Position numbers and translations under genes: made by a program. Below are positions 7,781-51,541 of a stretch of DNA of 64,000 bases, in pieces. Under the pieces are notes generated by a model, which was not told where the DNA came from, did no database searches, and saw only the letters and a program-made list of their open reading frames with translations. The stretch lies in the NCBI RefSeq assembly GCF_055900595.2, contig NZ_CM148325.1; one strand, written 5' to 3'. Position 1 is the first letter of the stretch. The number at the start of each line of letters is the position of its first letter.

Positions 7781-10739
7781 CCTTAATCGCGTCATCGGAT
7801 GGTCTGGTTTACTGCTGACGTCTTTATTGAGTACCAGCGCACTCGCAGACAATATCGGCACCAGCGCAGAAGAGCTGGGGCTGAGCGATTATCGCCATTT
7901 TGTTATTTATCCCCGTCTCGATAAGGCGCTGAAGGCACAGAAAAATAACGACGAAGCAACCGCCATCCGCGAATTTGAATATATACACCAGCAGGTGCCG
8001 GATAATATTCCGCTGACTTTATACCTTGCGGAAGCCTATCGCCATTTTGGTCATGATGACCGGGCGCGGCTGTTGCTTGAGGATCAACTGAAACGTCACC
8101 CAGGAGATGCCCGACTTGAGCGCAGTCTGGCGGCTATTCCAGTTGAAGTGAAAAGCGTTACGACTGTTGAAGAACTGCTTGCCCAGCAAAAAGCGTGCGA
8201 CGCTGCGCCGACCCTGCGTTGTCGCAGTGAAGTCGGGCAGAATGCCCTGCGGCTGGCACAATTACCTGTCGCCAGAGCGCAACTGAACGATGCGACGTTT
8301 GCTGCATCGACGGAAGGAAAAACGCTGCGAACCGATCTGCTGCAACGGGCAATCTACCTCAAGCAGTGGTCGCTGGCAGAAGCGTTGTTCAGTGAATCAC
8401 GGCAACAAAATACATTAAACGCAGCTGAGCGCCGTCAGTGGTTTGATGTTCTGCTCGCAGGCCAGCTGGATGATCGGATCCTGGCGCTGCAATCAGAGGG
8501 GATCTTCACCGATCCACAGTCATATATTACTTACGCGACCGCGCTGGCTTATCGTGGCGAGAAAGCACGCCTCCAGCATTATCTCATTGAAAATAAGCCG
8601 CTGTTTACCACGGACGCACAAGAGAAAAGTTGGCTCTATCTGTTATCTAAATACAGCGCCAACCCCGTTCAGGCGTTGGCGAATTATACGGTACAGTTTG
8701 CCGATAACCGCCAGTATGTTGTTGGCGCGACGCTACCGGTGCTGTTAAAAGAAGGTCAGTACGACGCAGCGCAAAAACTGCTCGCCACCCTCCCCGCCAA
8801 TGAAATGCTTGAGGAGCGTTATACCGTTAGCGTAGCGACCCATAACAAGGCTGAAGCTCTGCGTCTGGCACGATTGCTGTATCAGCAAGAACCGGCAAAT
8901 CTTACCCGCCTGGATCAACTGACCTGGCAACTGATGCAGAACGAGCAGTCACGCGAAGCTGCCGATTTATTGCTGCAACGCTATCCTTTCCAGGGCGATG
9001 CGCGTGTCAGCCAGACTTTAATGGCGCGACTGGCGTCTCTGCTGGAAAGTCATCCTTACCTGGCAACTCCGGCGAAGGTGGCGATTTTATCGAAACCCTT
9101 ACCGCTGGCGGAGCAACGTCAGTGGCAAAGTCAGTTGCCGGGTATTGCAGATAATTGCCCGGCAATAGTTCGCTTGCTGGGCGATATGTCGCCTTCCTAC
9201 GATGCCGCCGCCTGGAACCGTCTGGCAAAGTGTTATCGGGACACGCTACCCGGCGTGGCGTTGTATGCATGGCTTCAGGCCGAACAACGGCAACCGAACG
9301 CCTGGCAACATCGTGCGGTAGCCTATCAGGCGTATCAGGTTGAGGATTACGCCACCGCACTGGCGGCCTGGCAGAAAATCAGTCTTCACGACATGAGCAA
9401 TGAGGATCTGCTTGCTGCTGCCAATACCGCCCAGGCGGCAGGAAATGGTGCGGCTCGCGATCGCTGGCTTCAGCAGGCAGAACAACGTGGGCTGGGAAAC
9501 AATGCCCTCTACTGGTGGCTGCATGCGCAACGTTACATTCCTGGTCAGCCGGAACTCGCACTGAACGATCTCACGCGCTCAATCAATATTGCGCCTTCTG
9601 CCAACGCTTACGTTGCGCGGGCGACAATTTATCGCCAACGTCATAATGTCCCGGCGGCGGTGAGTGATTTGCGCGCCGCTCTGGAACTGGAACCGAATAA
9701 TAGCAACACCCAGGCAGCGCTCGGTTACGCCTTGTGGGATAGCGGTGATATTGCACAGTCGCGGGAAATGCTCGAACAGGCGCATAAAGGGCTACCGGAC
9801 GATCCGGCACTTATCCGACAACTGGCCTACGTGAACCAGCGTCTGGATGATATGCCTGCGACGCAGCACTACGCCCGGCTGGTGATTGATGACATTGATA
9901 ATCAGGCGCTGATAACCCCACTGACCCCAGAGCAAAATCAGCAACGCTTCAATTTCCGCCGTCTGCATGAGGAGGTCGGTCGCCGCTGGACGTTCAGTTT
10001 CGATTCTTCTATCGGCTTGCGTTCCGGCGCAATGAGTACCGCTAACAATAATGTCGGCGGCGCAGCGCCAGGGAAAAGCTATCGTAGCTACGGGCAACTG
10101 GAAGCCGAGTACCGCATCGGACGCAATATGCTGCTGGAAGGCGACCTGCTCTCGGTTTACAGCCGTGTATTTGCCGATACCGGAGAAAACGGGGTGATGA
10201 TGCCGGTGAAAAATCCGATGTCCGGCACCGGTCTGCGCTGGAAGCCGCTGCGCGATCAGATCTTTTTCCTCGCCGTCGAACAGCAGTTGCCGCTGAACGG
10301 GCAAAATGGCGCATCCGATACCATGCTGCGCGCCAGCGCCTCATTCTTTAATGGCGGCAAATACAGCGACGAATGGCACCCGAACGGTTCAGGCTGGTTT
10401 GCCCAAAACCTGTACCTCGATGCGGCGCAATATGTCCGCCAGGATATTCAGGCGTGGACGGCAGATTATCGCTTAAGCTGGCATCAGAAGGTGGCGAACG
10501 GACAGACTATTGAGCCTTACGCTCACGTTCAGGACAACGGCTATCGGGATAAAGGTACCCAGGGCGCGCAGCTTGGCGGTGTCGGTGTCCGCTGGAATAT
10601 CTGGACCGGCGAGACGCACTACGACGCCTGGCCGCACAAAGTCAGTCTCGGCGTCGAATATCAACATACCTTTAAGGCGATTAATCAACGTAACGGAGAG
10701 CGCAACAACGCGTTTCTCACCATTGGAGTGCACTGGTAA
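7767..10739 (+). CDS. nfrA: NfrA, bacteriophage N4 adsorption protein A (outer membrane, TPR-rich)
   Basis: ORF 7746-10739; start at internal Met (MKENNLNRVIG) gives 990 aa with signal peptide; overlaps nfrB end. Confidence 0.85.
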   Translation: MKENNLNRVIGWSGLLLTSLLSTSALADNIGTSAEELGLSDYRHFVIYPRLDKALKAQKNNDEATAIREFEYIHQQVPDNIPLTLYLAEAYRHFGHDDRARLLLEDQLKRHPGDARLERSLAAIPVEVKSVTTVEELLAQQKACDAAPTLRCRSEVGQNALRLAQLPVARAQLNDATFAASTEGKTLRTDLLQRAIYLKQWSLAEALFSESRQQNTLNAAERRQWFDVLLAGQLDDRILALQSEGIFTDPQSYITYATALAYRGEKARLQHYLIENKPLFTTDAQEKSWLYLLSKYSANPVQALANYTVQFADNRQYVVGATLPVLLKEGQYDAAQKLLATLPANEMLEERYTVSVATHNKAEALRLARLLYQQEPANLTRLDQLTWQLMQNEQSREAADLLLQRYPFQGDARVSQTLMARLASLLESHPYLATPAKVAILSKPLPLAEQRQWQSQLPGIADNCPAIVRLLGDMSPSYDAAAWNRLAKCYRDTLPGVALYAWLQAEQRQPNAWQHRAVAYQAYQVEDYATALAAWQKISLHDMSNEDLLAAANTAQAAGNGAARDRWLQQAEQRGLGNNALYWWLHAQRYIPGQPELALNDLTRSINIAPSANAYVARATIYRQRHNVPAAVSDLRAALELEPNNSNTQAALGYALWDSGDIAQSREMLEQAHKGLPDDPALIRQLAYVNQRLDDMPATQHYARLVIDDIDNQALITPLTPEQNQQRFNFRRLHEEVGRRWTFSFDSSIGLRSGAMSTANNNVGGAAPGKSYRSYGQLEAEYRIGRNMLLEGDLLSVYSRVFADTGENGVMMPVKNPMSGTGLRWKPLRDQIFFLAVEQQLPLNGQNGASDTMLRASASFFNGGKYSDEWHPNGSGWFAQNLYLDAAQYVRQDIQAWTADYRLSWHQKVANGQTIEPYAHVQDNGYRDKGTQGAQLGGVGVRWNIWTGETHYDAWPHKVSLGVEYQHTFKAINQRNGERNNAFLTIGVHW

Positions 10740-16732: not shown

Positions 16733-17014
16733 TCACATCCAGCCACGAAGTTGATGCTCAACAACAACCGCGTATTCATCGAATATTGACGGTGTTTTCA
16801 CATCATTAATGATGCGCACGTTTACAAAATATCCGTCTTCCTTAACACATACCGGCTCGCCATCTTCAGTAATTTCCCCGGTTTCTTTGTACACGTTACC
16901 TATCACATCAATGAGAACATTGTTCTGCATCACCTCGTCATCGTCATAACCAATGCTATCCATAAAGGCCGAAAAGTCGGCCTTGTCTGTGAATTTGATA
17001 ATTAAGTCTCGCAT
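16733..17014 (-). CDS. Hypothetical phage protein
   Basis: 93-aa acidic ORF, start overlaps the upstream tail-fibre-like gene stop (operon-like). Confidence 0.4.
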   Translation of the reverse strand: MRDLIIKFTDKADFSAFMDSIGYDDDEVMQNNVLIDVIGNVYKETGEITEDGEPVCVKEDGYFVNVRIINDVKTPSIFDEYAVVVEHQLRGWM

Positions 17015-18024
17015 TATATTACCTCTCCCATTTGTGCATCGGTTAATTCTTTATGCCATATACGAAAATTACGAATGTGACCGAAAAGATGACGTAGACC
17101 GCTATTAGTCTGTCCCCCAATCCTGAAGAAATAACCAGATTTAACACCGACATGATCCGTGGTTTTAGGAGTCCCATGCTGGGCATTGCTAACGAAATGC
17201 ACATTACCAGATTCATTTAAAACAAATCCAAGAACAGATTTTTGTTCAAATAATACTGGCGATACGGCGGCTACTGTACTACCGTTTTTATTGTGCATCG
17301 TAACACCAGGAAATAATGTTGAACTAATAGCAACACTTATATATTGACCCGGAGTTGTGCTCCCACCACTGGTATCAAAAATTCGTGGTGCTGCATTTGG
17401 CGTTTCGTTCCAGTTTGTATGAACTTCAGCTAGAAATGTTAAAGGTGGTGTACCGATATTGTTATTTGTTGGTATATTCACCATATCACTGGCTCTTGTG
17501 ACTGGCGTTGCCTCAGTAATAATAAACGAAGAAGCGCACGAACCGCCTTCGACCTGAGGAGTTGCAACATAAATATAATCATCTGCACCAGTGCTTCCCC
17601 CTTTTGGTGGTGCATATTGCACCATCGCACCGATCATATTTTCTGTATCAAGTGCCTTAATTGTTGCCTCAAAGAAAATCCATTTGCTTGCTTCATTTTT
17701 AACAGCCCTTGCAGTAATACGACTTGCAGCGCCGCCAGTTTTATCAATCGATAAATCTGTCATATTTAAGTAAGCATCACCCAGGAATTTGTAGGTAGAT
17801 CCATCATATTCTTCAAATCGTAATCGACATCTTAAATTTGGAGTCCCACTTTGTACCCTGCATGAGATAGTTACATACTTTTCATCGCCGGTAACATCAT
17901 ATCCTTTGCTTCCAGATACTGTGACAATAGAAATGGCTGAGGTTTGCCCCACCATTTCTGGTTTTAATGTGAATTTTGCGTACTGGAAACCAAAATCATC
18001 TACACCTGATGTATTTAAAATCAT
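17014..18024 (-). CDS. Phage tail fibre / receptor-binding-like protein, 5' end abutting IS1 (possibly truncated)
   Basis: ORF 17014-18048 begins with a non-ATG start inside IS1; first ATG (MILNTSG) at 18024; Gly/Thr/Ser-rich beta-type sequence with C-terminal motif NFRIWHKELTDAQMGEVI resembling lectin-like tail-fibre tips. Confidence 0.5.
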   Translation of the reverse strand: MILNTSGVDDFGFQYAKFTLKPEMVGQTSAISIVTVSGSKGYDVTGDEKYVTISCRVQSGTPNLRCRLRFEEYDGSTYKFLGDAYLNMTDLSIDKTGGAASRITARAVKNEASKWIFFEATIKALDTENMIGAMVQYAPPKGGSTGADDYIYVATPQVEGGSCASSFIITEATPVTRASDMVNIPTNNNIGTPPLTFLAEVHTNWNETPNAAPRIFDTSGGSTTPGQYISVAISSTLFPGVTMHNKNGSTVAAVSPVLFEQKSVLGFVLNESGNVHFVSNAQHGTPKTTDHVGVKSGYFFRIGGQTNSGLRHLFGHIRNFRIWHKELTDAQMGEVI

Positions 18025-18049
18025 ATTTGATGACGGTAATGACTCCAAC

Positions 18050-18553
18050 TTATTGATAGTGTTTTATGTTCAGATAATGCCCGATGACTTTGTCATGCAG
18101 CTCCACCGATTTTGAGAACGACAGCGACTTCCGTCCCAGCCGTGCCAGGTGCTGCCTCAGATTCAGGTTATGCCGCTCAATTCGCTGCGTATATCGCTTG
18201 CTGATTACGTGCAGCTTTCCCTTCAGGCGGGATTCATACAGCGGCCAGCCATCCGTCATCCATATCACCACGTCAAAGGGTGACAGCAGGCTCATAAGAC
18301 GCCCCAGCGTCGCCATAGTGCGTTCACCGAATACGTGCGCAACAACCGTCTTCCGGAGCCTGTCATACGCGTAAAACAGCCAGCGCTGGCGCGATTTAGC
18401 CCCGACATAGCCCCACTGTTCGTCCATTTCCGCACAGACGATGACGTCACTGCCCGGCTGTATGCGCGAGGTTACCGACTGCGGCCTGAGTTTTTTAAGT
18501 GACGTAAAATCGTGTTGAGGCCAACGCCCATAATGCGGGCAGTTGCCCGGCAT
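18050..18553 (-). CDS. insB: IS1 transposase InsB
   Basis: 167-aa ORF identical in character to IS1 InsB ([25 protein letters not shown]...). Confidence 0.95.
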
Positions 18554-18747
18554 CCAACGCCATTCATGGCCATATCAATGATTTTCTGGTGCGTACCGGG
18601 TTGAGAAGCGGTGTAAGTGAACTGCAGTTGCCATGTTTTACGGCAGTGAGAGCAGAGATAGCGCTGATGTCCGGCGGTGCTTTTGCCGTTACGCACCACC
18701 CCGTCAGTAGCTGAACAGGAGGGACAGCTGATAGAAACAGAAGCCAC
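18472..18747 (-). CDS. insA: IS1 protein InsA
   Basis: 91-aa [43 protein letters not shown]..., classic InsA with zinc finger. Confidence 0.95.
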
Positions 18748-18797
18748 TGGAGCACCTCAAAAACACCATCATACACTAAATCAGTAAGTTGGCAGCA

Positions 18798-19430
18798 TCA
18801 CCCATTACCGCCCATAATGATGATATTAGTGACGCCCTCACTAAATTCTGCGTAGCTCTCAATATCATCATTTGGATCAAAAGTTTCTTTATCCTTACCT
18901 GACCACTCAGCACCGCCAGACTGAGTGATGATATTTTGTGGTTTAATATTCCAGTCCAGCTCATAACGTTCAATACCATCGCCCTCAATGATATTTTTCC
19001 CCGTTGTGATTGCCTGAACGGCAAGCCATTCAATACGTGCACGAATAGCTTTAGCCTGATTTACAATCGCCTGTTTAACTTTAATATTACGCGCTCCAAA
19101 AGCATTGTATTGCTCAGGTGATACACCAGCAGGGCGCACAGCTAACTTATTTGGATCAATGCTGCTTTTCGGCTTCATATAGCCTGGACGAATTGTTTTT
19201 GATTCGAACCCTTCGTCACGTGAAACTTTACTACCCACCATAGGAGAACAAAACGCTGCAATTGGGATATTTGGATCGTCGATTGTATCAAGAATAATAT
19301 CGCGCGATTCAAACATTACCGAGCGAGTAAAAAACAAACTGGTAAACAACGCATTTAGTTGTTTTTGTACATCTACAGCATTAACCACCTGTACAAGCTG
19401 AGTAGGCGAATATAAATCAACCATACGCAT
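18798..19430 (-). pseudogene. Divergent lambda-E-family major capsid protein gene, 3' end truncated by IS1
   Basis: From Met at about 19430 the translation aligns with lambda gpE (FFTRSVMFESRD..., PGYMKPK, NIITQSGGAEWSGKDKETFDPNDDIESYA) and terminates at the IS1 junction after NIII, roughly half the length of gpE. Confidence 0.65.
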
Positions 19431-19640
19431 CCTCTTTGCATTCATTAAAAATAATTGTGGATATATGCTATCACCGATATTTGTCATGCGAACACATGCA
19501 ACCGAGTGCAATGTTGTATAAAGTTTTGGGGTGACAACTTCAGTGCGGACAATTAGTGTTAATATCTTCACTCCCTTTGGTCGGGATTTATGTAGCATGC
19601 CGGAAAATTTATTTTTTCTGGCTTTTTTTATTGGCAATAT

Positions 19641-20090
19641 TTAAAACGGGATATCATCTCCCCATTGCTCATTATCTCCCACTGGTGGCTGGCTTCCTTG
19701 CTGATCTGCCTGTTGTTTTGCTCTGTTCAGTGCGTCAGTAGCCTGCCCCTGTTGGCCTTTATTGCCGCCCGGTCGCACCGATCGCGCACTGATTACGCTG
19801 TCTGCGATAACCTGCCAGCCCTGCCGCGTTTCGCCGTTCTGTCCAGTCCACTGGCTCATCTGCATGTTACCCGCCACGCTCAGGAGTTCGCCTTTGTGAT
19901 GCTTTGCCAGCGCGTCGGCTTGTCTGCCAAACGCCAGGACAGATAACCACATCGTCGCCTGACCGTCATCCGACTGACTGCAGGGCAGTGATACCGCCAT
20001 ACGCGCCAGCGTCATGGGGGTGCCCTTGCTGGTCTGTTTTGTCTGCGGGTCGTCCACCAACCGCCCGTAAACTGATATTTGCGCCGTCAT
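19641..20090 (-). CDS. ssb: Single-stranded DNA-binding protein (SSB), phage/plasmid type
   Basis: 149-aa ORF with OB-fold-like N-terminus, Gly/Gln-rich linker and acidic C-terminal tail ending DDIPF. Confidence 0.8.
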   Translation of the reverse strand: MTAQISVYGRLVDDPQTKQTSKGTPMTLARMAVSLPCSQSDDGQATMWLSVLAFGRQADALAKHHKGELLSVAGNMQMSQWTGQNGETRQGWQVIADSVISARSVRPGGNKGQQGQATDALNRAKQQADQQGSQPPVGDNEQWGDDIPF

Positions 20091-20332
20091 GCTGCCTGCT
20101 CTCCGGACTTAATATTGATTGTTGTCACTTCCTCCGCTTCAGCAATCTCCCGTTCGGTCAGAGTGGCAAAGTTTGCAGCCGCCGTTGTCATGAATGCGCT
20201 AATCAGTTCGGGATGTGCTTTCGCGTATCCTTCCCCGGCGTTGCGGTCGATGATTTTTATCGACACCCTTAACCAGTGTTCCGTCAAATCAAGGGCGTGC
20301 GATTGTGATTTTTTTGTGTGCTTCGCTGTCAT
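20087..20332 (-). CDS. Hypothetical protein upstream of ssb
   Basis: 81-aa ORF overlapping the ssb start by 4 nt. Confidence 0.4.
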   Translation of the reverse strand: MTAKHTKKSQSHALDLTEHWLRVSIKIIDRNAGEGYAKAHPELISAFMTTAAANFATLTEREIAEAEEVTTINIKSGEQAA

Positions 20333-20384
20333 AGGCTTTATCTCACAGCAGTAAATTAAAATTTTTGCGTTTTAACCCTTCACC

Positions 20385-20605
20385 TGTTCACCTTTTGATA
20401 TTTTCTCTTTTAATTCATAATGTTAATGGGTGAACAGTTTCACAAAAACTATTCACCAACTGTTCACCACTGTTCACCCTTGAAGCTCAATAAACAATCA
20501 AAAAGGTGAACAGTGAATAGTTTGGTGAACAGTTCATAAATAACTGTTCACCCTATAATATACTGATATAAAAGATATTTATGACAGGGTGAACAGTGGT
20601 GAACA
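20385..20605. repeat. P4-type replication origin/crr-like iteron cluster (TGTTCACC octamers)
   Basis: Nine copies of TGTTCACC / GGTGAACA in both orientations (20385, 20429, 20461, 20471, 20505, 20524, 20545, 20588, 20598) with an AT-rich stretch, immediately 3' of the primase gene. Confidence 0.75.
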
Positions 20606-20619
20606 GTTATTCCATAAGT

Positions 20620-22440
20620 TTAATTTTTGCTATCGTCATTAGTGACCGATACACATGATGGCATCCAGTCTTCTGATTCCTCCGTCAGTGTCACGTTTGA
20701 ACGCAAACCGTGCTTCGTTTTCCGTTTCATATACTCCCTGCCATATTCCGCCATTGCCCCCGGCATATCTTTACCGAAGCGCGTCAGTGTTACAGGTTTA
20801 CCAAACCCATGTGCCCTCATATAAGCCAGATAGGCATGATAGAGATACCTGCGTGGGCTAAATGGCACAATTTCAGCATTACCCACTAACAGGCCATCAC
20901 ACATTACCGATGCCATGAGATAGCCGCAGAAGTCCACCAGCGAATCCCCCTCTCGCTTTATCGCCAGTGCTTCTTCAGATTTCTGCTGCTCATATAACAG
21001 GCGTCTGGCTTCGTCCTGATCATCAAACCGTGTAAGCAGATGACGAATCACTACCGCCAGCTCACCTTCTATTTTTTCCGCCAGCATCGAATCGCGTTCG
21101 TTCTCCGGTACAACTTCCGAAAAATTGAATATCACCCGACGACGTGAGATCCCCCCGCTGCGGTCACTGAATGACATGGCGTTATTGTTAACCGCCAGCA
21201 CTACTGCCGGAATACGCGTTGAATAGGGGGCTTTGTGTTTCGGGTCAATTGCCACCTTGTCACCGCCTGTAATGGCCTTAATCCCTGCCCCATCACCAGC
21301 GTAGCGGGTCATATCCGGCATGATAATCAGCGAAAAGCCAACCACTAACGCACGTTCCCTTGCATCTTCCAGCGCCTTCATGCTTGCTGATACTGTATTA
21401 GCCTTACCCGCCAGCATGGTGCAAATCTCCGCCATCACACTTTTACCACTTCCCCCCGGCCCTGTTACCTCAATGAATAACTGCCAGTCGTACCGGTTCG
21501 CCAGCACCATGAATAATGCCGCCAGTACGCGATCTGCCTTGCGGTCATTCTCAGCCACCGAACGGCGCAACCACTTCCAGAAATTCGGCGCATGTGTTGC
21601 CAGCGTTTCCCCCTCTGCTGGTGGGCTGAAAGGTAATTCACTGGCAATTAACAACCAGTCGTTTTTGTTATGCTCCCGAAAATTACCTGTTCTGGTATCA
21701 AATACCCCGTTACTGAATCCAATCAGGTTACGGGCTGTATTCCCCATTACAGGCAAACTTAACTTCATGGTATCTACCGCCGATTTAATGGCGTTCTGCG
21801 AATAGCTGATCTCCACATCAATGAAAATCTGCGCCATAGCACGCTGTAACTCTTTATCCTGAACCGGCTCCCATACAACGCCGTTGTAATGATGAACGGT
21901 GTCAGAGTCGGCATTGATTGCCAGTTCGCCGCCGTAATGTGCCAGGAGAACTTCACCGCGCTGGCTGGCCCCCATCTGATTCAACGCCAAAGATGAAGCA
22001 CGCTCGTCATTTTTGCGCTCTGCCTTCTTCACTGGCAGTTCAATCACCAGACTTTCCCCATGCTCCGCTTCAGCTTTTAGGCCGACAAGGCGCGGAGTCC
22101 AGTCTTCAGGCTCTCGATCAACAAAGCTACGGTAACAACGTGCTTCCTTTACGCCTGCAATAGCAAGTAATGTCGCAACCTTCGTCAGATTTTTCTCTGC
22201 GATCTTTCCGGCACGATAAACACGCACATAATGACGGCCTTCATCGATAATTTGCATATCATCCAGGTTTTCCAGTTGTTCCGTACCCAGAATTACTGGT
22301 GGTGTATCATCTGCTGCAATATGCTTACCCGCCCATTCATTCCATTCTTTTGCATGGCTCCAGGCATCACTGCCAGCAAAAATGATGACTTCTGTCATTT
22401 TGTCGCGCGGTTGGTATTTTAAGTTCGGAGCACGTTTCAT
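20620..22440 (-). CDS. P4-alpha-family primase/helicase (phage/plasmid primase, P-loop NTPase)
   Basis: 606-aa ORF with Walker A GPGGSGKS and primase C-terminal-type sequence; adjacent to TGTTCACC iterons. Confidence 0.8.
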   Translation of the reverse strand: MKRAPNLKYQPRDKMTEVIIFAGSDAWSHAKEWNEWAGKHIAADDTPPVILGTEQLENLDDMQIIDEGRHYVRVYRAGKIAEKNLTKVATLLAIAGVKEARCYRSFVDREPEDWTPRLVGLKAEAEHGESLVIELPVKKAERKNDERASSLALNQMGASQRGEVLLAHYGGELAINADSDTVHHYNGVVWEPVQDKELQRAMAQIFIDVEISYSQNAIKSAVDTMKLSLPVMGNTARNLIGFSNGVFDTRTGNFREHNKNDWLLIASELPFSPPAEGETLATHAPNFWKWLRRSVAENDRKADRVLAALFMVLANRYDWQLFIEVTGPGGSGKSVMAEICTMLAGKANTVSASMKALEDARERALVVGFSLIIMPDMTRYAGDGAGIKAITGGDKVAIDPKHKAPYSTRIPAVVLAVNNNAMSFSDRSGGISRRRVIFNFSEVVPENERDSMLAEKIEGELAVVIRHLLTRFDDQDEARRLLYEQQKSEEALAIKREGDSLVDFCGYLMASVMCDGLLVGNAEIVPFSPRRYLYHAYLAYMRAHGFGKPVTLTRFGKDMPGAMAEYGREYMKRKTKHGLRSNVTLTEESEDWMPSCVSVTNDDSKN

Positions 22441-22724
22441 TTGTTACCTCCGGCAACTAACATTGCCCGAATTTTGCGGATATAGCCTGCGGCACGCCTC
22501 TGATTATCTGTCTTGCAATTTTTTACCAGAATGAAATCTCTTTCGAACTGCTGACGCGGCATAACACATTCAAAATCATAACCATCACGCAAATAAGAGA
22601 CACGACGATCATCAACCGAAATAATCTTTACCCGATAGCCATAGCTGTCTTTGAAAATATCCCCAAGGCTGATTTTTGAATGAGTTTGACCGCTGGCAAT
22701 AAAGCCAGAAAATTTATTTTTCAT
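22437..22724 (-). CDS. Hypothetical protein of the P4-like module
   Basis: 95-aa ORF overlapping the primase start (operon-like). Confidence 0.45.
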   Translation of the reverse strand: MKNKFSGFIASGQTHSKISLGDIFKDSYGYRVKIISVDDRRVSYLRDGYDFECVMPRQQFERDFILVKNCKTDNQRRAAGYIRKIRAMLVAGGNK

Positions 22725-22727
22725 TTT

Positions 22728-22952
22728 TTATTCTCCGGTATAGCTCTGGTCGTGTATTTTTATAGCTTCATCCAGCTCTTTGATGACAGGATCAAGTAAC
22801 GTAATTAACGCTCCAGCTAAATTAGCATCCCGTTCATCGTGTTCCGCATTTGTTGTCCCATCAAGCCAGGTTGATAAGATTTCTCGCATATTTTTGCCAC
22901 AAACGAGCGCGTTTTCAGCATGTGTCAGCACTTTAAAATAAAGATCATTCAT
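22728..22952 (-). CDS. Hypothetical protein of the P4-like module
   Basis: 74-aa acidic ORF in tandem with downstream genes. Confidence 0.4.
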   Translation of the reverse strand: MNDLYFKVLTHAENALVCGKNMREILSTWLDGTTNAEHDERDANLAGALITLLDPVIKELDEAIKIHDQSYTGE

Positions 22953-23259
22953 GGCACACCTCCTGACGAATACGGGCGGCGAATATCATCACGTAGCCAG
23001 TTGGGGATTGCAGCCGGGCTTCCTGTTCGCTGGCGGCCTCGATGGTAATCACGCGCGGTTGTGCCGTACTCAGGGCGATAAAACGCCAGATGTATTTATT
23101 CAGGTTGTGCGGGTCCCGCCCTTGCGGGTGTGTGGTATGATTTCTCATAGCTACCTCGATACTGTTGCTATCGTTGGTGGTTAGAAGCCCGTTGGTGTTC
23201 CTAGCACCTTCGGGCTTTGCTTTTTTAAGTGCCTCCGTGTTAAGGTGGTCACCTAACAA
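22945..23259 (-). CDS. Hypothetical protein of the P4-like module (true start probably the internal Met at 23148)
   Basis: 104-aa ORF; 5' part overlaps an opposite-strand ORF, so a shorter 67-aa product from 23148 is more plausible. Confidence 0.35.
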   Translation of the reverse strand: MLGDHLNTEALKKAKPEGARNTNGLLTTNDSNSIEVAMRNHTTHPQGRDPHNLNKYIWRFIALSTAQPRVITIEAASEQEARLQSPTGYVMIFAARIRQEVCHE

Positions 23260-23479
23260 TGAAAAGGCTAATTCAATAGGTGGTCACTTGTCAACGATCA
23301 AACGCGATAAAAGTCCTAAGGGTGATGGGCAATCTCCACAATTCAGAATGCGAATTTCTCCAGAGCTAAAAGAGCAATTCGACAAAGAAGCGCAGAGCGA
23401 CGGCATAAGCCTAGCCAACTGGCTTAAAGAATTAGGGCGCAAAGAGCTGCTACGGCGCGGTATTGAACCAAAAGGATAA
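23165..23479 (+). CDS. Putative ribbon-helix-helix DNA-binding protein (true start probably internal)
   Basis: C-terminal 45 residues (QFRMRISPELKEQFDKEAQSDGISLANWLKELGRKELL) fit an Arc/CopG-type RHH pattern; two GGTGGTCAC direct repeats lie just upstream of the likely start. Confidence 0.45.
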   Translation: MLSLVVRSPLVFLAPSGFAFLSASVLRWSPNNEKANSIGGHLSTIKRDKSPKGDGQSPQFRMRISPELKEQFDKEAQSDGISLANWLKELGRKELLRRGIEPKG

Positions 23480-23506
23480 GAATAATTGAAGTCAAGGAGC
23501 TAACAC

Positions 23507-23863
23507 ATGAAATACGAATTCTTCGCAACAAGTAGCAGTAGTTTGGATGTATACATAGTCACTGTATCAAACGATTCTGGCTCTCTAATCATGACTTGTA
23601 ATTGTCCAGCAGGAAGTAAAGGTATTCTATGTAGACACCGTAAAGCTTTAATTACCGGAAAAATCCGCGGTATATTCACTCCCCCAAGAAGGAATAATCC
23701 CGAAAAATTACAAGAAGCTATAAATTTAATAGCCACATATGGCATAGATAAAACATTAAAGTTGTACACTGATGAGTTAGAACGAGCAGAACAGACTTGG
23801 ATAAGTGTTCGCGATAATTTGAGAGCAATGATAAACGCTCTTGTTGAACCACCTAAATATTGA
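23507..23863 (+). CDS. Small SWIM-zinc-finger-like protein (cargo gene)
   Basis: 118-aa AT-rich ORF with CxC-x8-CxH motif (CNCPAGSKGILCRH); followed by a hairpin terminator. Confidence 0.55.
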   Translation: MKYEFFATSSSSLDVYIVTVSNDSGSLIMTCNCPAGSKGILCRHRKALITGKIRGIFTPPRRNNPEKLQEAINLIATYGIDKTLKLYTDELERAEQTWISVRDNLRAMINALVEPPKY

Positions 23864-23929
23864 ACTGTTCACATTGCCTATCAGGCGATAACCTCGTATT
23901 CTGATTAAGGCTAACTATATACTCACATT

Positions 23930-23955
23930 GGCGACCAATTCTGGTCGCCTTTATC
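23930..23955. terminator. Hairpin between two convergent cargo genes (likely bidirectional intrinsic terminator)
   Basis: GGCGACC-aattct-GGTCGCC stem-loop followed by TTTATC; sits between the convergent 118-aa and 284-aa genes. Confidence 0.55.
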
Positions 23956-23994
23956 TACCATTTTTATAATATCATAGATTAAGAGTGTTAATCC

Positions 23995-24849
23995 TTACCC
24001 CCTGAATGGAATTGATGAGGATTTAATTTCCACAGAACCAAATCCTCTTGAATCCAAAAACATTTTTATACCAGCCTCAATAAAATCATAATCGCTTGTC
24101 GGGCCAATTGTAATGCTTTTAATTGGTAACTTTCTATTATCTTTATTATTAATAATGATATAAGGGATGATACCATTATTATTTATTCTAAATTTCACAT
24201 CTGGCATTTGTATCCACGGAGTAAACACCAGTCTAAATTCATTTTCTTCGATAAAACTAGGATGTTTAAAAAATGGGATATATTTAGATATAAATTGATA
24301 CGTAGAGACCATTGTTACAAAATGATCATTCATTTCTTTAATGTTAATACCATTACAAGAAAAAAACTCATCCAACTCCTTACTCATCTTTGTAATATCG
24401 TCATTATTTGAATATATAACATCATGTGCAACACAATTTAAATAAATATTTTGACAAAAACTCACAAGTTCATCCGCATCAAATTCAATGCAAACGCCCT
24501 GTTTATTTCCGTAACCTCTCCACTGACTTAACTTATCGTTTTCTTTACAAAAAGATATGCTATAAACATGTTTATCAATCCCTTTTTCTTTTTGTAACTT
24601 CCCTTTCTCATACATGTCAAGAGACTTGAGCAAAATAGTTTTCTTATCTTTTGGGATGATATTATCATCAACTATTTTAATTGTATTTCGAAAACATTCA
24701 CATCCATGGTTAGACTCCTCTTTATCATTTAAGAAATATATATTTGTAGCCCATAAAGAATTAGAGTCTAATATACCTTTCAAACCAAAAAGATCTGTAT
24801 AATGAAATATAGCCACAATGCCCCACCTAATAGTTAAGTCGTTTCCCAC
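23995..24849 (-). CDS. DUF2971-like protein (candidate anti-phage cargo gene)
   Basis: 284-aa very AT-rich ORF; motifs FHYTDLFGLKGIL, YFLNDKEE, SISFC...LSQWRGYGN..GVCIEFD resemble my recollection of DUF2971; overlaps the alpA stop (co-transcribed). Confidence 0.5.
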   Translation of the reverse strand: MGNDLTIRWGIVAIFHYTDLFGLKGILDSNSLWATNIYFLNDKEESNHGCECFRNTIKIVDDNIIPKDKKTILLKSLDMYEKGKLQKEKGIDKHVYSISFCKENDKLSQWRGYGNKQGVCIEFDADELVSFCQNIYLNCVAHDVIYSNNDDITKMSKELDEFFSCNGINIKEMNDHFVTMVSTYQFISKYIPFFKHPSFIEENEFRLVFTPWIQMPDVKFRINNNGIIPYIIINNKDNRKLPIKSITIGPTSDYDFIEAGIKMFLDSRGFGSVEIKSSSIPFRG

Positions 24850-25064
24850 TCACCTCGAATCCATGCCTGCACTTCTGAAAGACGATATGCAACAGCAGTG
24901 GAACCAATCTTGATCCGCTTAGGAAATTTTCCTTCCTTCTCCAGCTTCCAGCGTGTGCTGTTCGCAAGAGTGGTTAGCTCCCGACATTCTTTCTCACGGA
25001 TCATACGATCGATGTTAGGAATGTACTCCAGACCCTTTTTATCAACAATTGCCATTTTTTTCAT
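24834..25064 (-). CDS. alpA: AlpA-family phage transcriptional regulator/excisionase-like HTH protein
   Basis: 76-aa ORF directly downstream of the integrase, sequence pattern (ELTTLANSTRWKLEKEGKFPKRIKIGSTAVAYRLSEVQAWI) typical of AlpA. Confidence 0.8.
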   Translation of the reverse strand: MKKMAIVDKKGLEYIPNIDRMIREKECRELTTLANSTRWKLEKEGKFPKRIKIGSTAVAYRLSEVQAWIRGEWETT

Positions 25065-25065
25065 G

Positions 25066-26352
25066 TTAACCAGCCTTTTGTTTGAGGATTGTCACTTTTG
25101 AATCAGCACCTGCGATGCTATTGAGATATGTAGTCCAGAGTTCCAGAGCATCCAGTTTTTTAGCCATAAACTTACTCCGGTTGTAAACACCCGCCACGCC
25201 AGGTAGCGCATGGCCTAACAGTTGTTCTACTACATAAAATTCAACACCGAGATCACTTAGATGAGTAGATAGCGTTCTTCTAAGGTCGTGTAGTGACCAT
25301 TGTTTTTCATGGCCCAAACGTTTACCGATTTTCCCCCCAATCTTGCTTACGCTTTCTCTAATTCGCAGACTTCCCAGCACATAACCAGTATGTTTTGTCT
25401 CTTCGTGAACATCCGTTACCCACTGTCGTAGAATTTCAGGTACTGGTCTGACGATTTCAACACCAGTTTTTGAGTGATCTTTTGGTACCGTCCAAACCCA
25501 ACTTTCGAGATCCCATTCGCTCCATTCAGATAATCGGGCTTCACTCATTCGACATCCAAATACTGTACAAAGCACAAACATTTTTCGCGTGTATTCAGAC
25601 ATTAGTTTTAAATCAGGCTCGACAAAAATTGCCTTCCAGAGCTGGCCGAGTTCGGCTTCATCCAGAACCCGATCCCGCTTACCTGCAATCTGCCCCACAT
25701 CACTCATGCGCAAATCCTTTAAAGCATCACACGTCGCGTACTGGCGTACCCGACAAAAACGAAGAGCTAATTTAGTGTCAGAAAAAACATACGCCGCCAT
25801 AACTGGTGCATTACGTTTAATTCGGTCAAAACAGTCCAGCCATTCATATAGGTGAGTGTCATTTACGGGCAAATGACCGATATAGGGAAAGATATGCTTT
25901 CGAAATCTGCCAAGCGTTACAGCATGAGTTTTACGACGCACCTTACAGTAATTTTCATACCAGTAATTTAGTGCATCCTCCACTGTGACCGGCTTTAAGC
26001 GTTCTTCAGCCTGAATCTTAATCTGGATACGCGGATCACGTTTGTCAGCCAACCAACCACGGCACTCGTCGCGCTTTTCCCTTGCCTGTTTGAGTGACAT
26101 ATCAGGATATTTACCCAACGTTAGCCAGACCGGAGCAGCCCGGCCACCTGCTAACCTGTAGAAGAAAACAAAGCTCACAGCCCCTTTAGTACTCACACGA
26201 ATAGAAAGCCCCTTTCCATCAGCAATGGTGATCTGCTTTTCTCTGGGTTTCCCCAGATATCCTTTAAGCGCTTTGTCGCTCAGTTTGTTCTCGCCAGCCA
26301 TTTTTAGCCCCAAAAAGCAATACAAGCTGCAATACAGAGATGATTGCAACAC
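25066..26352 (-). CDS. Tyrosine recombinase/integrase (P4-type)
   Basis: 428-aa ORF with C-terminal catalytic region containing HDLRRT and LLGHA...Y motifs; int-alpA arrangement typical of P4-like islands. Confidence 0.85.
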   Translation of the reverse strand: MLQSSLYCSLYCFLGLKMAGENKLSDKALKGYLGKPREKQITIADGKGLSIRVSTKGAVSFVFFYRLAGGRAAPVWLTLGKYPDMSLKQAREKRDECRGWLADKRDPRIQIKIQAEERLKPVTVEDALNYWYENYCKVRRKTHAVTLGRFRKHIFPYIGHLPVNDTHLYEWLDCFDRIKRNAPVMAAYVFSDTKLALRFCRVRQYATCDALKDLRMSDVGQIAGKRDRVLDEAELGQLWKAIFVEPDLKLMSEYTRKMFVLCTVFGCRMSEARLSEWSEWDLESWVWTVPKDHSKTGVEIVRPVPEILRQWVTDVHEETKHTGYVLGSLRIRESVSKIGGKIGKRLGHEKQWSLHDLRRTLSTHLSDLGVEFYVVEQLLGHALPGVAGVYNRSKFMAKKLDALELWTTYLNSIAGADSKVTILKQKAG

Positions 26353-26433
26353 ACAGATAACGAGGAAAATTCAGTGAAAGCACCAGATAAACTTATTCTT
26401 TATTATCAAAAGATTAAGTGTAAAAACCAGCAA

Positions 26434-26709
26434 CTACACGAAAGCCTCAGAAAGCCATGCTAAGTGCTTGGGTTTGACATAACCCGGCGTAAATTCAGAG
26501 GTGGAGCCGCCACGGGATCGGATAACCTCACCGGAAACAATCGGCGAAACGTACAGCGCCATGTTTACCAGTCCCGGAATTTGTGAGAGATAGACTTTTT
26601 CCGTGGTGAAAGGATAGGTTTCACGGAAAAACAGGCGCAGAAACAGCGGATCGAACTTAAAGTGATGCTGGGTCGATGCCAGTAATTCTGCAGTTGTATA
26701 TACAGACAT
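26434..26709 (-). pseudogene. E: Lambda major capsid protein E, N-terminal ~80 codons only (truncated)
   Basis: MSVYTTAELLASTQHHFKFDPLFLRLFFRETYPFTTEKVYLSQIPGLVNMALYVSPIVSGEVIRSRGGSTSEFTPGYVKPKH is near-identical to lambda gpE N-terminus, then diverges and stops. Confidence 0.85.
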
Positions 26710-26764
26710 AAATTATTTCCATAAAAAAAGCCGCACAGGCGGCCTTTGTTGATGAAGGGGAAGA

Positions 26765-27097
26765 TTAAACGATGCTGATTGCCGTTCCGGCAAACGCGGT
26801 CCGTTTTTTAGTCTCGTCGCTGGCAGCCTCCGGCCAGAGCACATCCTCATAACGGAACGAGCCGGACTTGTAGAACGTCAGTGTGGTGCTGGTCTGGTCA
26901 GCAGCAACCGCCAGAATGCCAACGGCTGCACCGTCGGTGGTGCCATCCCACACAACCAGCTTACGGGTAGTGCCATCCAGCATCAGCGGGGTCATTGCAG
27001 GCGTTTTCGCACTCAATCCGCCAGGCGCAATTGCTGTATGAGCCGGATCACTGTTACCCAGCGGCTGGTAATGGTTAAACTCTTCTTTTGTCGCCAT
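26765..27097 (-). CDS. D: Head decoration protein D
   Basis: 110-aa ORF closely matching lambda gpD ([14 protein letters not shown]...FAGTAISIV). Confidence 0.9.
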
Positions 27098-27106
27098 AAC
27101 TGCCTC

Positions 27107-28418
27107 TTATACCGGTAAAGCTTCAGGTGTATTAAGTAATTCTTTATTGGTATCAGATGCCAGGTTACCTGCAGCCAGCGGTGCCGGTGCACCCTGCATC
27201 AGACGATCCAGCGCAGTGTCACTGCGCGCCTGTGCACTCTGTGGTGCTGCAGCCAGAATGCGGCGGGCCGTTTCCACGGTCATTCCGGGGGTTTCGGCCA
27301 GAACGCGCGCCTGTTCTTCGCGTCCGTGAGCCTCCTCACAGTTGAGGATCCCCATAATGCGGCTGTTTTCTGCCGCAACCGCTGCGGTGATCTGCGCGTT
27401 CACGTCCGGCTGCGCCGCGCTGGCGTTTTCGCCCTCCGTCGCTGGCACCACGTCAGTAACGTCAGCCTGCGAAGCAGTGGCTGAAACAGTTGTTGATTGA
27501 GTCTCTTTGGTCATTCGCCCTCCTGAGAGACGGGATTTACGCGCATCCAGTGCATCACGCATGACGGTGATCGCATCGGTGCTGTTAACAAGTTCATCAG
27601 CCAGTCCGGCATCAATGGCCTCCTGACCGCTGTACACTGCAGCCTCGGTATCCAGCACAGCCTGCACAGACAGGCCGGTATATGCCGACACCTTCTGCGC
27701 AAACATCTGGCGGGTTGCGTCCATCCGGGACTGCAGTGTCTCCCGGACGTCATCCGGAAGATGGCTGTAGGGATTGCCATCCACCTTATGGCTGCCGCTG
27801 TAAATCAGCGTGATTTCCACACCCTGTTTCTCCAGGGCAGCACCGTAATTACTGTGAGCCATCATGACGCCGATGGAGCCTGTCCGGGCGGTCTGCGTGA
27901 CCAGACGCCGGGAGGCGGCACTGGCAAGCAGCTGACCTGCACTGCAGTTCATGTCGTTGGCCAGCGCCCATACCGGTTTTATGTCACGCACACGGGCGAT
28001 GATGTCAGCGCAGTCAAATGCCCCCGCCACCATTCCGCCTGGCGTGTCCATATCGAGCAGAATGCCGTCCACCATCGGGTCGCTGGCAGCCTGTTGCAGA
28101 CGGGCGATAATGCCGTTGTAACCGGTCATCCCCGAGTACGGCTGCAGCGCCCGCGTCCGGCTGACCAGCGTGCCGGACACCGGCAGCACGGCGATGCCGT
28201 TCATGACCTGATAACTGCGGGCCTGTCGTGGTCCGTCATCATCACCGGATAATGCCAGCGTCGCGAGTGCCTCCTGGGCAGTCAGGCTGTCGCCGGACAC
28301 CGCATCCGTCAGGCGGCTGATCCCAAGCTGGCCTGCAAGCGCACAAAAGAAAACCCGCGCATAGGCGGGTTCAAGCATCAGCGGCTCATTAAAGGCCATG
28401 CTGGCAATATGCGGGAGA

Positions 28419-28438
<20 letters not shown>
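27107..28438 (-). CDS. C: Head maturation protease/scaffold C (S49 family; Nu3 nested)
   Basis: ORF 27107-28552; start placed at the codon giving VTAELRNLPHIASMAFNEPL as in lambda gpC; overlaps portal gene end. Confidence 0.85.
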
Positions 28439-32119
<3,681 letters not shown>

Positions 32120-51259: not shown

Positions 51260-51541
51260 ATGCATTTTTCTGGCAGCGGGCTTCATATTCTGTGTGCTTA
51301 TGCTTGCCGACATGGGGCTTGTTCAGTGACACCTCAGCAGGAAAACGCCCTTCGCAGCATTGCCCGTCAGGCTAATTCTGAAATCAAAAAAACCAGACAG
51401 CAGTTTCCGGATAAAAACGTCGATGACATTTGCCGTAGCGTACTGAAGAAGCACCGCGAAACGGTAACGCTGATGGGATTCACACCGACTCATTTAAGCC
51501 TGGCAATCGGCATGTTAAACGGCGTTTTTAAGGAACGGTGA
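51260..51541 (+). CDS. Hypothetical protein (ea-region)
   Basis: 93-aa ORF in tandem; start uncertain. Confidence 0.3.
   Translation: MHFSGSGLHILCAYACRHGACSVTPQQENALRSIARQANSEIKKTRQQFPDKNVDDICRSVLKKHRETVTLMGFTPTHLSLAIGMLNGVFKER

What the first reader, a model, noticed from the sequence alone, without database searches (positions are those of the whole stretch)
20385..20605. Nine TGTTCACC octamers in both orientations immediately downstream of the primase gene
The octamer TGTTCACC is the iteron bound by the P4 alpha protein at ori and crr. Here nine copies in both orientations cluster within 220 bp next to an AT-rich stretch (ATAATATACTGATATAAAAGATATTTA), directly after the primase stop. This is a textbook replication origin for the embedded P4-like module and argues that the module may still be replication-competent.
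Basis: partly seen in the sequence, partly recalled or inferred. Interest (0 to 1): 0.5.

Follow-up and report, generated by a model that had tools for sequence, protein, structure and literature searches.

The report
P4-type iteron origin of a satellite island
The nine TGTTCACC repeats are real and are almost certainly the replication origin of a phage-satellite island (a PICI sitting inside a lambda-like prophage), built from the same repeat unit as the phage P4 origin; this kind of origin is already described, so the finding is correct but ordinary.

Summary
Observation confirmed: nine exact TGTTCACC octamers lie at 20385-20605 (about 2 expected in the whole 64-kb window), plus three degenerate copies. 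The cluster fills the gap between the stop of a 606-aa "primase" gene (20620-22440, minus strand) and the next gene.

Residues 149-596 of that protein are 51% identical to the helicase and origin-binding domain of P4 alpha (PDB 1KA8, E 2e-24). Its first 148 residues are not the P4 primase domain.

The region is two ~125-bp units in inverted orientation. Each unit has 2 tandem octamers, a 34-35-nt AT-rich spacer, 1 inverted octamer and 3 tandem octamers. Each unit is collinear with the P4 ori repeat set and with each P4 crr repeat.

EcCICFT073, a PICI whose pri-ori was shown experimentally to replicate a plasmid, has the same layout at the same offsets but a different iteron (TGTCTACC) and a more divergent binding domain. 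Octamers are 96% conserved against a 74%-identical relative; the other positions are 60% conserved.

The host element is a helper-embedded PICI of the published 11capE type, here truncated by IS1. Pri and ori are intact, but the island has lost its far end.

Verdict: an iteron origin of a known kind. Low to moderate interest.

The parts
20365..20617 (-). Whole origin region. It consists of two inverted ~125-bp iteron units between the pri stop and the next gene.
   Evidence: It is the only octamer cluster in the element. It is at least 90% identical over full length in 593 of 5426 complete E. coli genomes, next to a 'DNA primase family protein' gene in 29 of the 30 records sampled across the ranking.
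20492..20617 (-). Unit 1, proximal to pri and read on the minus strand. It has tandem octamers at 20598 and 20588, then the spacer, then an inverted octamer at 20545, then tandem copies at 20524, 20512-19 (degenerate) and 20505.
   Evidence: Alignments A1 and A3. It is collinear with P4 ori (X51522 9298-9425, reverse complement), with crr A and B, and with the units of vB_KppS-Ant and EcCICFT073.
20365..20490 (+). Unit 2, distal to pri and read on the plus strand. It has tandem copies at 20376 (degenerate) and 20385, then the spacer, then an inverted octamer at 20429, then tandem copies at 20450 (degenerate), 20461 and 20471.
   Evidence: blastn aligns 20411-20483 to the P4 'origin of DNA replication / ori type 1 repeat x4' at 78.7% identity.
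20554..20587 (.). AT-rich spacer of unit 1 (34 nt, 82% A+T). It is a candidate DNA-unwinding element and holds one exact IHF consensus at 20556-20568.
   Evidence: Spacer length is 34-35 nt in the seven window, vB_KppS-Ant and P4 units and 39 nt in the two EcCICFT073 units.
20393..20427 (.). AT-rich spacer of unit 2 (35 nt, 86% A+T). It is the second candidate unwinding element.
20620..22440 (-). pri, the initiator gene (606 aa). Residues 1-148 are an N-terminal module of unknown function. Residues 149-490 are a D5_N plus SF3 helicase. Residues 491-606 are a winged-helix origin-binding domain.
   Evidence: Pfam hits are D5_N, DUF5906 and Pox_D5. Identity to P4 alpha residues 323-771 is 51%. 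PDB 1KA8 matches at E 1.9e-24. Identity to EcCICFT073 Pri is 43% over the full length.
20087..20332 (-). 81-aa gene of unknown function downstream of ori. It is conserved at this position in EcCICFT073 and in 11capE-type islands.
   Evidence: phrog_1231; synteny.
19641..20090 (-). Single-stranded DNA-binding protein gene. It is part of the replication module.
   Evidence: phrog_44 and TIGR00621.
18803..19637 (-). The island's own major capsid gene, truncated at its 3' end by IS1.
   Evidence: phrog_29. The match to the intact island L003 stops at window 18803.
18035..18802 (.). IS1 that ends the island prematurely.
   Evidence: 98.8-99.6% identity to IS1 copies in 11 of the 12 phage records listed (96.2% in a Klebsiella phage).
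24834..26352 (-). Integrase gene (25066-26352) and AlpA-like HTH gene (24834-25064) at the surviving end of the island. They sit next to the N-terminal fragment of the interrupted lambdoid capsid gene (26434-26709).
   Evidence: This is the HE-PICI configuration described in PMC10111431.

Best explanation
The cluster is the replication origin (ori) of a phage-inducible chromosomal island. The island's Pri protein is an SF3 helicase with a C-terminal winged-helix domain homologous to the origin-binding domain of P4 alpha.

Proposed mechanism (inferred): Pri binds the TGTTCACC iterons. These are spaced about one helical turn apart (8-11 bp) and are arranged as two inverted units. Binding on both sides of the AT-rich spacers concentrates Pri, melts an AT-rich spacer and loads helicase rings. 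The inverted two-unit layout would suit loading in both directions. Priming would come from Pri's own N-terminal domain if it is active, or more probably from host DnaG. The island's SSB gene lies just downstream.

Shown here: the repeats, their non-random clustering, their selective conservation, their homology to P4 ori/crr and to the EcCICFT073 ori, and the domain make-up of Pri.

Inferred: binding, melting site, directionality and the source of primers.

In this genome both pri and ori are intact, but IS1 has cut off the island's far end. Any firing would therefore amplify DNA in situ rather than produce a transferable element.
For: (1) Nine exact octamers lie in 221 bp, against 2.05 expected in 64 kb.

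(2) The P4 record annotates the same octamer as 'ori type 1 repeat', with 6 copies in ori and 10 in crr. blastn aligns the region to P4 ori.

(3) Pri residues 149-596 are 51% identical to P4 alpha 323-771. Residues 498-594 match the solved P4 origin-binding domain 1KA8 at E 1.9e-24.

(4) Nine units align collinearly. They are two each from the window, vB_KppS-Ant and EcCICFT073, plus P4 ori, crrA and crrB. Spacers are 34-39 nt.

(5) EcCICFT073 has 11 of its 12 TCTACC cores within 270 bp after pri. Their offsets from the stop are 17+, 26+, 72-, 94+, 105+, 114+ | 145-, 156-, 178+, 224-, 233-. The offsets here are 18+, 28+, 71-, 92+, (103), 111+ | 145-, 155-, (166), 187+, 231-, (240). The EcCICFT073 pri-ori segment maintained a temperature-sensitive plasmid, and deleting pri or ori abolished or reduced this (PMC6092414).

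(6) Iteron sequence tracks the binding domain. At 80% (Ant) and 50% (P4) domain identity the iteron is the same TGTTCACC. At 36% (CFT073) it is TGTCTACC. At 32% (Serratia phage Scapp) it is a TTGCACTTTTC cluster after the gene.

(7) Selection acts on the octamers. Against vB_KppS-Ant, 69 of 72 octamer positions are identical versus 124 of 206 other positions (Fisher p 7e-10).

(8) All 80 related IMG/VR loci carry 6-10 octamers at the same offsets. Helicase, binding domain and ori stay 95-100% identical while the N-terminal domain drops to about 50%.

(9) The published description of 11capE-type islands states that they carry their own primase and origin.
Against: There is no direct evidence for this sequence. 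No binding, melting or replication assay exists for a TGTTCACC-type PICI ori.

In P4 the cluster at this position (crr) is an auxiliary cis site rather than the start site, and P4 needs a second site 4.5 kb away.

Pri lacks a recognisable primase active site, so the replicon may not be self-sufficient.

In the 11capE study, replication of the excised island was weak or undetectable in two of three repeats.

The island here is truncated, and expression of pri depends on induction signals that may no longer reach it.
Confidence: 0.85

Rival explanations
1. The cluster is a crr-like auxiliary site. It would be a cis-acting enhancer or copy-number (handcuffing) element bound by Pri, with initiation taking place elsewhere.
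For: It occupies the position of P4 crr, directly after the alpha-type gene. Like crr, it has two units. Unit 2's spacer is most similar to the crrA spacer (60%).
Against: No second octamer cluster exists in the island or in any of the 80 related loci. Both spacers are 82-86% A+T, like P4 ori (85%) and unlike crr (68-74%). Unit 2 is most similar overall to P4 ori (64%). Deleting the equivalent region of EcCICFT073 reduced plasmid maintenance.
Confidence: 0.07
2. The site is an origin by descent but is functionally dead in this genome. It would be a relic in a decaying island that is never expressed or fired.
For: IS1 has deleted the island's right end (the rest of its capsid gene, attR and probably cos) and more than 9 kb of helper head and tail genes. 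The helper prophage can no longer make virions.
Against: Pri here is 100% identical to copies in many other contigs. The ori has the modal 9-octamer layout. int, alpA and all genes upstream of pri are intact ORFs. This rival concerns present activity, not what the sequence is.
Confidence: 0.25
3. The cluster is a transcriptional operator or roadblock. Pri, or another winged-helix protein, would bind it to control read-through from pri into the downstream genes for the 81-aa protein, SSB and capsid.
For: The site lies inside a unidirectional operon with no terminator-like or promoter-like signal. Winged-helix domains often act as regulators.
Against: The homology is to origin sequences and to an origin-binding domain attached to a helicase. 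The AT-rich spacers and the 12 sites are far more than an operator needs. This role could coexist with origin function.
Confidence: 0.03
4. The cluster is a hairpin or cruciform signal, such as a single-strand initiation site, a recombination site or a packaging site, formed by the large inverted repeat.
For: As single-stranded DNA the 256-nt region folds into one long imperfect hairpin of -50.7 kcal/mol, with z -8.2 against shuffles.
Against: Complementarity comes almost entirely from the octamers. Spacers of the two arms are no more similar to each other (60%) than to their orthologues in vB_KppS-Ant (56-63%), so nothing maintains pairing. P4 crr has the units in direct orientation. The cos site of these islands is reported elsewhere.
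Confidence: 0.02

Closest known systems
Bacteriophage P4 ori and crr with the alpha protein
   Same: The 8-bp iteron is identical (TGTTCACC, 'type 1 repeat'). The unit architecture is the same: 2 tandem copies, a 34-35-nt spacer, 1 inverted copy, then 2-3 tandem copies. The initiator shares 51% identity across the SF3 helicase and the winged-helix origin-binding domain. A cluster lies directly after the initiator gene.
   Different: P4 splits the function into one unit at ori and two direct units at crr, 4.5 kb apart. Here two inverted units sit together and no second site exists. P4 alpha has a 322-aa N-terminal zinc-ribbon and DnaG-type primase domain. Here a 148-aa unrelated module takes its place (hhalign probability 0.4%). 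A terminator separates alpha from crr in P4; none was found here. The surrounding element is a PICI, with no sid, delta or psu genes among the functions annotated in the intact relative L003 and no P4 CI-type (C4/isrK) RNA match.
EcCICFT073 pri-ori, the Gram-negative PICI replicon (Fillol-Salom et al. 2018, PMC6092414)
   Same: Pri has the same full-length architecture, including the N-terminal module (43% identity over 598 aa). The ori is immediately 3' of pri, with the same two inverted units at nearly identical offsets. The synteny is the same: DUF4222, pri, ori, small ORF, ssb, capsid, decoration. Autonomous replication of pri-ori was shown experimentally for this relative.
   Different: The iteron core is TGTCTACC rather than TGTTCACC, and the binding domain is only 36% identical. 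Its distal spacer is GC-rich (44% A+T), whereas both spacers are AT-rich here. EcCICFT073 is integrated in the chromosome, not inside a prophage gene.
Eco567.11capE helper-embedded PICI (PMC10111431)
   Same: This is an ~11-kb island with int, alpA, pri, ssb and capsid genes, integrated in and co-oriented with the major capsid gene of a lambdoid prophage. [quoted passage not shown]
   Different: The copy in this window is truncated by IS1 in its capsid gene and has lost its second attachment site. In the passages of the paper I retrieved by term search, the iterons and their identity with those of P4 are not described (the word 'iteron' does not occur in its main text).
[quoted passage not shown]
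   Same: The position is the same (immediately 3' of the initiator gene). The logic is the same (two sets of iterons around AT-rich DNA), as stated in PMC6092414.
   Different: No sequence relationship was tested or is expected. The initiators there are Pri and Rep, sometimes as separate proteins.

Membership tests
P4-type (alpha-dependent) iteron origin | Multiple TGTTCACC type 1 repeats in both orientations | tested here: met
   Nine exact and three degenerate copies. The P4 record annotates this octamer as 'ori type 1 repeat'.
P4-type (alpha-dependent) iteron origin | Collinearity with the P4 ori/crr repeat unit | tested here: met
   Alignments A1 and A3. blastn hit to P4 ori at 78.7% over 73 nt.
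P4-type (alpha-dependent) iteron origin | Cognate initiator with an alpha-type SF3 helicase and a C-terminal winged-helix origin-binding domain | tested here: met
   51% identity to alpha 323-771. 1KA8 matches at E 1.9e-24.
P4-type (alpha-dependent) iteron origin | Bipartite arrangement, with ori and a separate crr kilobases apart | tested here: not met
   Only one cluster is present in the island and in the 80 related loci.
P4-type (alpha-dependent) iteron origin | Initiator carries the alpha N-terminal zinc-ribbon and DnaG-type primase domain | tested here: not met
   [not shown]
P4-type (alpha-dependent) iteron origin | Protein binds the iterons and replication starts there | not testable with these tools
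   This needs EMSA or footprinting and a replication assay.
Gram-negative PICI pri-ori replicon (EcCICFT073 type) | ori immediately 3' of pri, with two sets of iterons around AT-rich DNA | tested here: met
   The family description is in PMC6092414.
Gram-negative PICI pri-ori replicon (EcCICFT073 type) | Pri homologous over its full length, including the N-terminal module | tested here: met
   43% identity over residues 1-593.
Gram-negative PICI pri-ori replicon (EcCICFT073 type) | Unidirectional int, alpA, pri, ori, (ssb), capsid gene order | tested here: met
Gram-negative PICI pri-ori replicon (EcCICFT073 type) | The pri-ori segment drives autonomous replication | not testable with these tools
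   Shown only for EcCICFT073.
Helper-embedded PICI (11capE type) | [quoted passage not shown] | tested here: met
   int (25066-26352, minus strand) abuts the N-terminal fragment of a lambdoid capsid gene (26434-26709, minus strand). That fragment is followed by decoration, protease and portal genes. The second junction has been deleted by IS1.
P4-like satellite (whole element) | P4 hallmark genes (sid, delta, psu, epsilon) and a CI RNA | tested here: not met
   The annotated gene content of the intact relative L003 names no such functions (several small ORFs are unnamed; no sid/delta/psu query was run). There is no Rfam C4/isrK match in 18000-27000.

The most novel reading that the evidence does not exclude
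Two satellite families that exploit different helpers share one initiator-origin specificity. These are P4, which depends on P2, and this lambdoid-dependent PICI. P4 alpha could then fire or titrate the PICI ori, and PICI Pri could act on P4 ori/crr, giving cross-replication or incompatibility between satellites in the same cell.

A linked idea concerns the origin's form. The compact origin of two inverted units would be the complete form, suited to loading two opposed SF3 helicase rings. P4's split ori plus crr would be a derived version.

A second linked idea concerns Pri. Its N-terminal module would be a catalytically dead Toprim-like domain, so PICI 'primases' of this class would not be primases at all.
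Probability: 0.3. Interest if true: 0.5.

Novelty: new member of a known kind. Interest (0 to 1): 0.3.

Why it matters
The result pins down the cis-acting origin of a satellite type found in about 11% of complete E. coli genomes (593 of 5426). It gives the origin's exact anatomy: 12 sites, two inverted units and two AT-rich spacers.

It shows that the PICI origin and the P4 ori/crr are built from one homologous unit. The PICI literature I read treats the two as different. This gives a ready system for asking how a winged-helix domain changes iteron specificity (TGTTCACC versus TGTCTACC). It also allows a test of whether unrelated satellites interfere with each other's replication.

For this genome specifically, an intact pri-ori in a truncated island could still cause local amplification of the prophage region on induction. 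None of this changes current understanding of how such origins work.

Tried and rejected
- **Rfam scan:** nothing at E <= 0.1 in 18000-27000, so there is no RNA element in or near the cluster.
- **Promoter and terminator scan:** nothing in 20000-20800.
- **Host-factor motifs:** no DnaA boxes and no GATC in 20330-20640. There is one IHF consensus, which is a lead only.
- **N-terminal domain against the P4 primase domain:** hhalign found no relationship.
- **Foldseek against AFDB50:** it returned only sequence relatives of the N-terminal domain and gave no functional assignment.
- **Pasteurella satellite Pmp8:** Pri is 34% identical, but only a terminator and the integrase gene follow pri. No iteron cluster was seen there, so it adds nothing to the covariation test.
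- **The 80 IMG/VR relatives:** they are too close in the ori (96-98% identical) for a strong octamer-versus-spacer contrast. The contrast came from vB_KppS-Ant instead.
- **Full-text search for TGTTCACC:** it returned only primer noise.
- **Primary P4 papers:** Ziegelin 1993 and 1995 are not held. P4 mechanism statements therefore rest on the P4 GenBank annotation, on PMC2777425 and on my own knowledge.
- **Hairpin reading:** considered and rejected because the spacers show no arm-to-arm conservation.

Full report
**Observation**

The sequence at 20385-20605 contains nine exact TGTTCACC octamers, four on the plus strand and five on the minus strand. The whole 64-kb window holds ten. Dinucleotide shuffles give 2.05 on average and never ten.

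Three degenerate copies sit in register with the exact ones: CCTTCACC at 20376, TATTCACC at 20450 and TATTCACT at 20512-19 on the minus strand. That makes 12 sites in all. The preferred extended form is ACTGTTCACC.

The cluster fills the 287-bp gap between two minus-strand genes. One is a 606-aa ORF (20620-22440) whose stop lies 14 nt from the first octamer. The other is an 81-aa ORF starting at 20332. G+C falls to 22-43% across the gap, against 45-65% in the flanking genes.

**Anatomy**

The region is not a loose scatter. It consists of two units of about 125 bp in inverted orientation, meeting near 20491. Read outward from the centre, each unit has:

- three tandem sites, with the middle or outer one degenerate;
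- about 12 nt;
- one site in the opposite orientation;
- a 34-35-nt spacer of 82-86% A+T;
- two tandem sites.

Tandem sites are 8-11 bp apart, about one helical turn. The distal unit has its own spacer (20393-20427).

As single-stranded DNA the whole region can fold into one long imperfect hairpin (z -8.2). This is a consequence of the inverted units. The spacers of the two arms are no more alike (60%) than orthologous spacers in a diverged relative (56-63%). I therefore see no selection for pairing itself.

**The neighbouring protein**

Pfam finds D5_N, DUF5906 (an SF3 helicase core) and Pox_D5 in residues 163-592. Residues 149-596 are 51% identical to residues 323-771 of P4 alpha. Residues 498-594 match the solved P4 origin-binding winged-helix domain 1KA8 at E 1.9e-24.

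The first 148 residues do not match the P4 primase domain:

- BLASTP, Pfam and NCBIfam find nothing for them.
- hhalign against alpha residues 1-322 gives probability 0.4%.
- The family-invariant residues read IIFAGSDAW and RxYxAG. A Toprim domain has an acidic E-G and a DxD at those places. The correspondence is my inference from the motif pattern.

So primase activity is doubtful. The 'primase' name comes from the P4-family helicase model TIGR01613.

The same N-terminal module heads proteins with other helicase types, including DUF927, VapE and NrS-1-like. It also recombines independently. In relatives whose Pri is '85-87% identical', the N-domain is about 50% identical. In the same relatives the helicase and binding domain are 95-100% identical and the ori is at least 96% identical.

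**Homology of the site**

The P4 record annotates TGTTCACC as 'ori type 1 repeat', with six copies in ori (9310-9413) and ten in crr (4291-4590). blastn aligns window 20411-20483 to P4 ori.

A nine-way alignment shows that both window units, both units of the induced element vB_KppS-Ant, P4 ori, each 120-bp crr repeat and both units of EcCICFT073 are collinear. Site order, orientation and spacer length match.

- P4 therefore uses one unit at ori and two direct units at crr, immediately after alpha.
- This element uses two inverted units immediately after its alpha-like gene and has no other cluster.
- By position the site corresponds to crr.
- By A+T content of the spacers (82-86%, against 85% for ori and 68-74% for crr) and by overall similarity (unit 2 is 64% identical to ori), it resembles ori.

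**Evidence that it functions as an origin**

(a) EcCICFT073 Pri is 43% identical over its full length, N-domain included. The 270 bp after its gene hold 11 of the locus's 12 TCTACC cores, at almost the same offsets from the stop codon as here. Fillol-Salom et al. showed that this pri-ori segment maintains a temperature-sensitive plasmid at the restrictive temperature. Deleting pri abolished this and deleting ori reduced it. [quoted passage not shown]

(b) Iteron sequence follows the binding domain:

| Relative | Binding-domain identity | Iteron |
|---|---|---|
| vB_KppS-Ant | 80% | TGTTCACC |
| P4 | 50% | TGTTCACC |
| EcCICFT073 | 36% | TGTCTACC |
| Serratia phage Scapp | 32% | TTGCACTTTTC (cluster after the gene) |

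(c) Against vB_KppS-Ant, whose region is 74.5% identical, 69 of 72 octamer positions are conserved versus 124 of 206 other positions (p 7e-10).

(d) All 80 IMG/VR relatives have 6-10 octamers at the same offsets. Gains and losses of tandem copies occur in 10-bp steps.

(e) The ori sequence occurs at 90% identity or more in 593 of 5426 complete E. coli genomes, next to a 'DNA primase family protein' gene in 29 of the 30 records sampled across the ranking.

**Context**

The gene order in the intact relative (L003) is int, alpA-like HTH, DUF2971, SWIM, Icd-like, small ORFs, DUF4222, pri, ori, 81-aa ORF, ssb, major capsid, decoration, HTH, TIR protein. This ~11-kb island sits inside the major capsid gene of a lambdoid prophage, whose two capsid fragments flank it.

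This is the helper-embedded PICI configuration described for Eco567.11capE. [quoted passage not shown]

In this window the integrase end and the capsid N-fragment are present (25066-26352 and 26434-26709). However, IS1 (18035-18802) cuts the island's own capsid gene and joins it to the 3' part of a tail gene (17014-18048). The rest of the island and more than 9 kb of helper head and tail genes are missing. The island cannot excise or be packaged from here. pri is 100% identical to copies in other contigs, and the ori has the modal layout.

**Mechanism**

Shown here: a dense, selectively conserved array of P4-type iterons in two inverted units with AT-rich spacers. It lies next to a gene for an SF3 helicase fused to the P4 origin-binding domain, followed by ssb.

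Inferred: Pri binds the iterons through its winged-helix domain, oligomerises, melts a spacer and loads helicase. The inverted units would allow two rings to be loaded in opposite directions, as in other SF3 initiators. Primers probably come from host DnaG, given the doubtful N-domain.

One exact IHF consensus lies in the proximal spacer (20556-20568). About 0.06 would be expected by chance in the region, so this is a lead only. A spacer motif close to TTTAATTCAGTAnnTTA is shared even with EcCICFT073 unit 1, whose iteron differs. This hints at a function that does not depend on iteron specificity.

**Rivals**

- **crr-like auxiliary site only:** weakened by the absence of any second cluster and by the EcCICFT073 ori deletion.
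- **Relic that no longer fires in this truncated island:** this concerns activity rather than identity, and it is plausible.
- **Operator or roadblock within the operon:** could coexist with origin function.
- **Hairpin signal:** has no support beyond the iterons.

**Comparison and novelty**

The site works like, and is homologous to, both P4 ori/crr and the Gram-negative PICI ori. It is a member of the PICI pri-ori family, since all testable features are met. It uses the P4 iteron, but it fails two P4 features: the bipartite ori/crr arrangement and the alpha primase domain.

The kind is known. The island type is published. The sequence is common in E. coli.

Three points appear to be unremarked in the papers I could read:

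- the iteron is identical with that of P4;
- one unit is shared by P4 ori, P4 crr and PICI origins;
- the helicase, binding domain and ori form a linkage block with a swappable, probably non-catalytic N-domain.

Fillol-Salom et al. state that PICI Pri variants differ from alpha and that the origin organisation is unlike that of any other known bacterial replicon.

**Verdict**

This is a new member of a known kind. Interest 0.3.

Noticed in passing
window 18803-26352, with flanks 26434-30020: The 'P4-like module' is part of a helper-embedded PICI of the 11capE type. It is inserted in, and co-oriented with, the major capsid gene of a lambdoid prophage. The capsid N-terminal fragment (26434-26709) is followed by decoration, protease and portal genes.
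   Followed up: yes
window 17014-19637: IS1 (18035-18802) joins the truncated PICI capsid gene to the 3' part of a lambdoid tail gene (17014-18048; aa 455-793 of the family profile). The rest of the island is missing, including decoration, HTH and TIR genes, attR and probably cos. More than 9 kb of helper head and tail genes are also missing. This looks like an IS1-mediated deletion.
   Followed up: yes
[not shown]
   Followed up: partly
L011, L006 and L072, downstream of pri (offsets 145-165): The number of tandem octamers varies among otherwise near-identical origins in 10-bp steps: one extra copy in L011, one fewer in L006 and L072. This is consistent with replication slippage.
   Followed up: partly
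window 20556-20568 (minus strand): There is one exact IHF consensus (TATCAGTATATTA) inside the AT-rich spacer of the pri-proximal unit. The whole window has 13 such matches (0.2 per kb). No DnaA box or GATC occurs in the origin.
   Followed up: partly
window 20400-20425 and 20556-20580; L086 7040-7065: A spacer motif close to TTTAATTCAGTAnnTTA is conserved across the units of this element, vB_KppS-Ant, P4 ori/crr and EcCICFT073 unit 1, even though the EcCICFT073 iteron differs. Its function is unknown.
   Followed up: no
L086 7126-7245 (EcCICFT073 distal unit): The distal unit of the experimentally validated EcCICFT073 origin has a GC-rich spacer (44% A+T), unlike its proximal unit (79%) and unlike both units here. 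The two units may therefore not be equivalent in function.
   Followed up: no
L003 6095-7237: Intact islands of this type carry a TIR-domain protein gene at their far end, a likely anti-phage cargo. It is absent from the window because of the IS1 deletion.
   Followed up: no
window 51537-51544 (minus strand): A lone tenth TGTTCACC lies far from the cluster, at the chance level expected for the window.
   Followed up: yes
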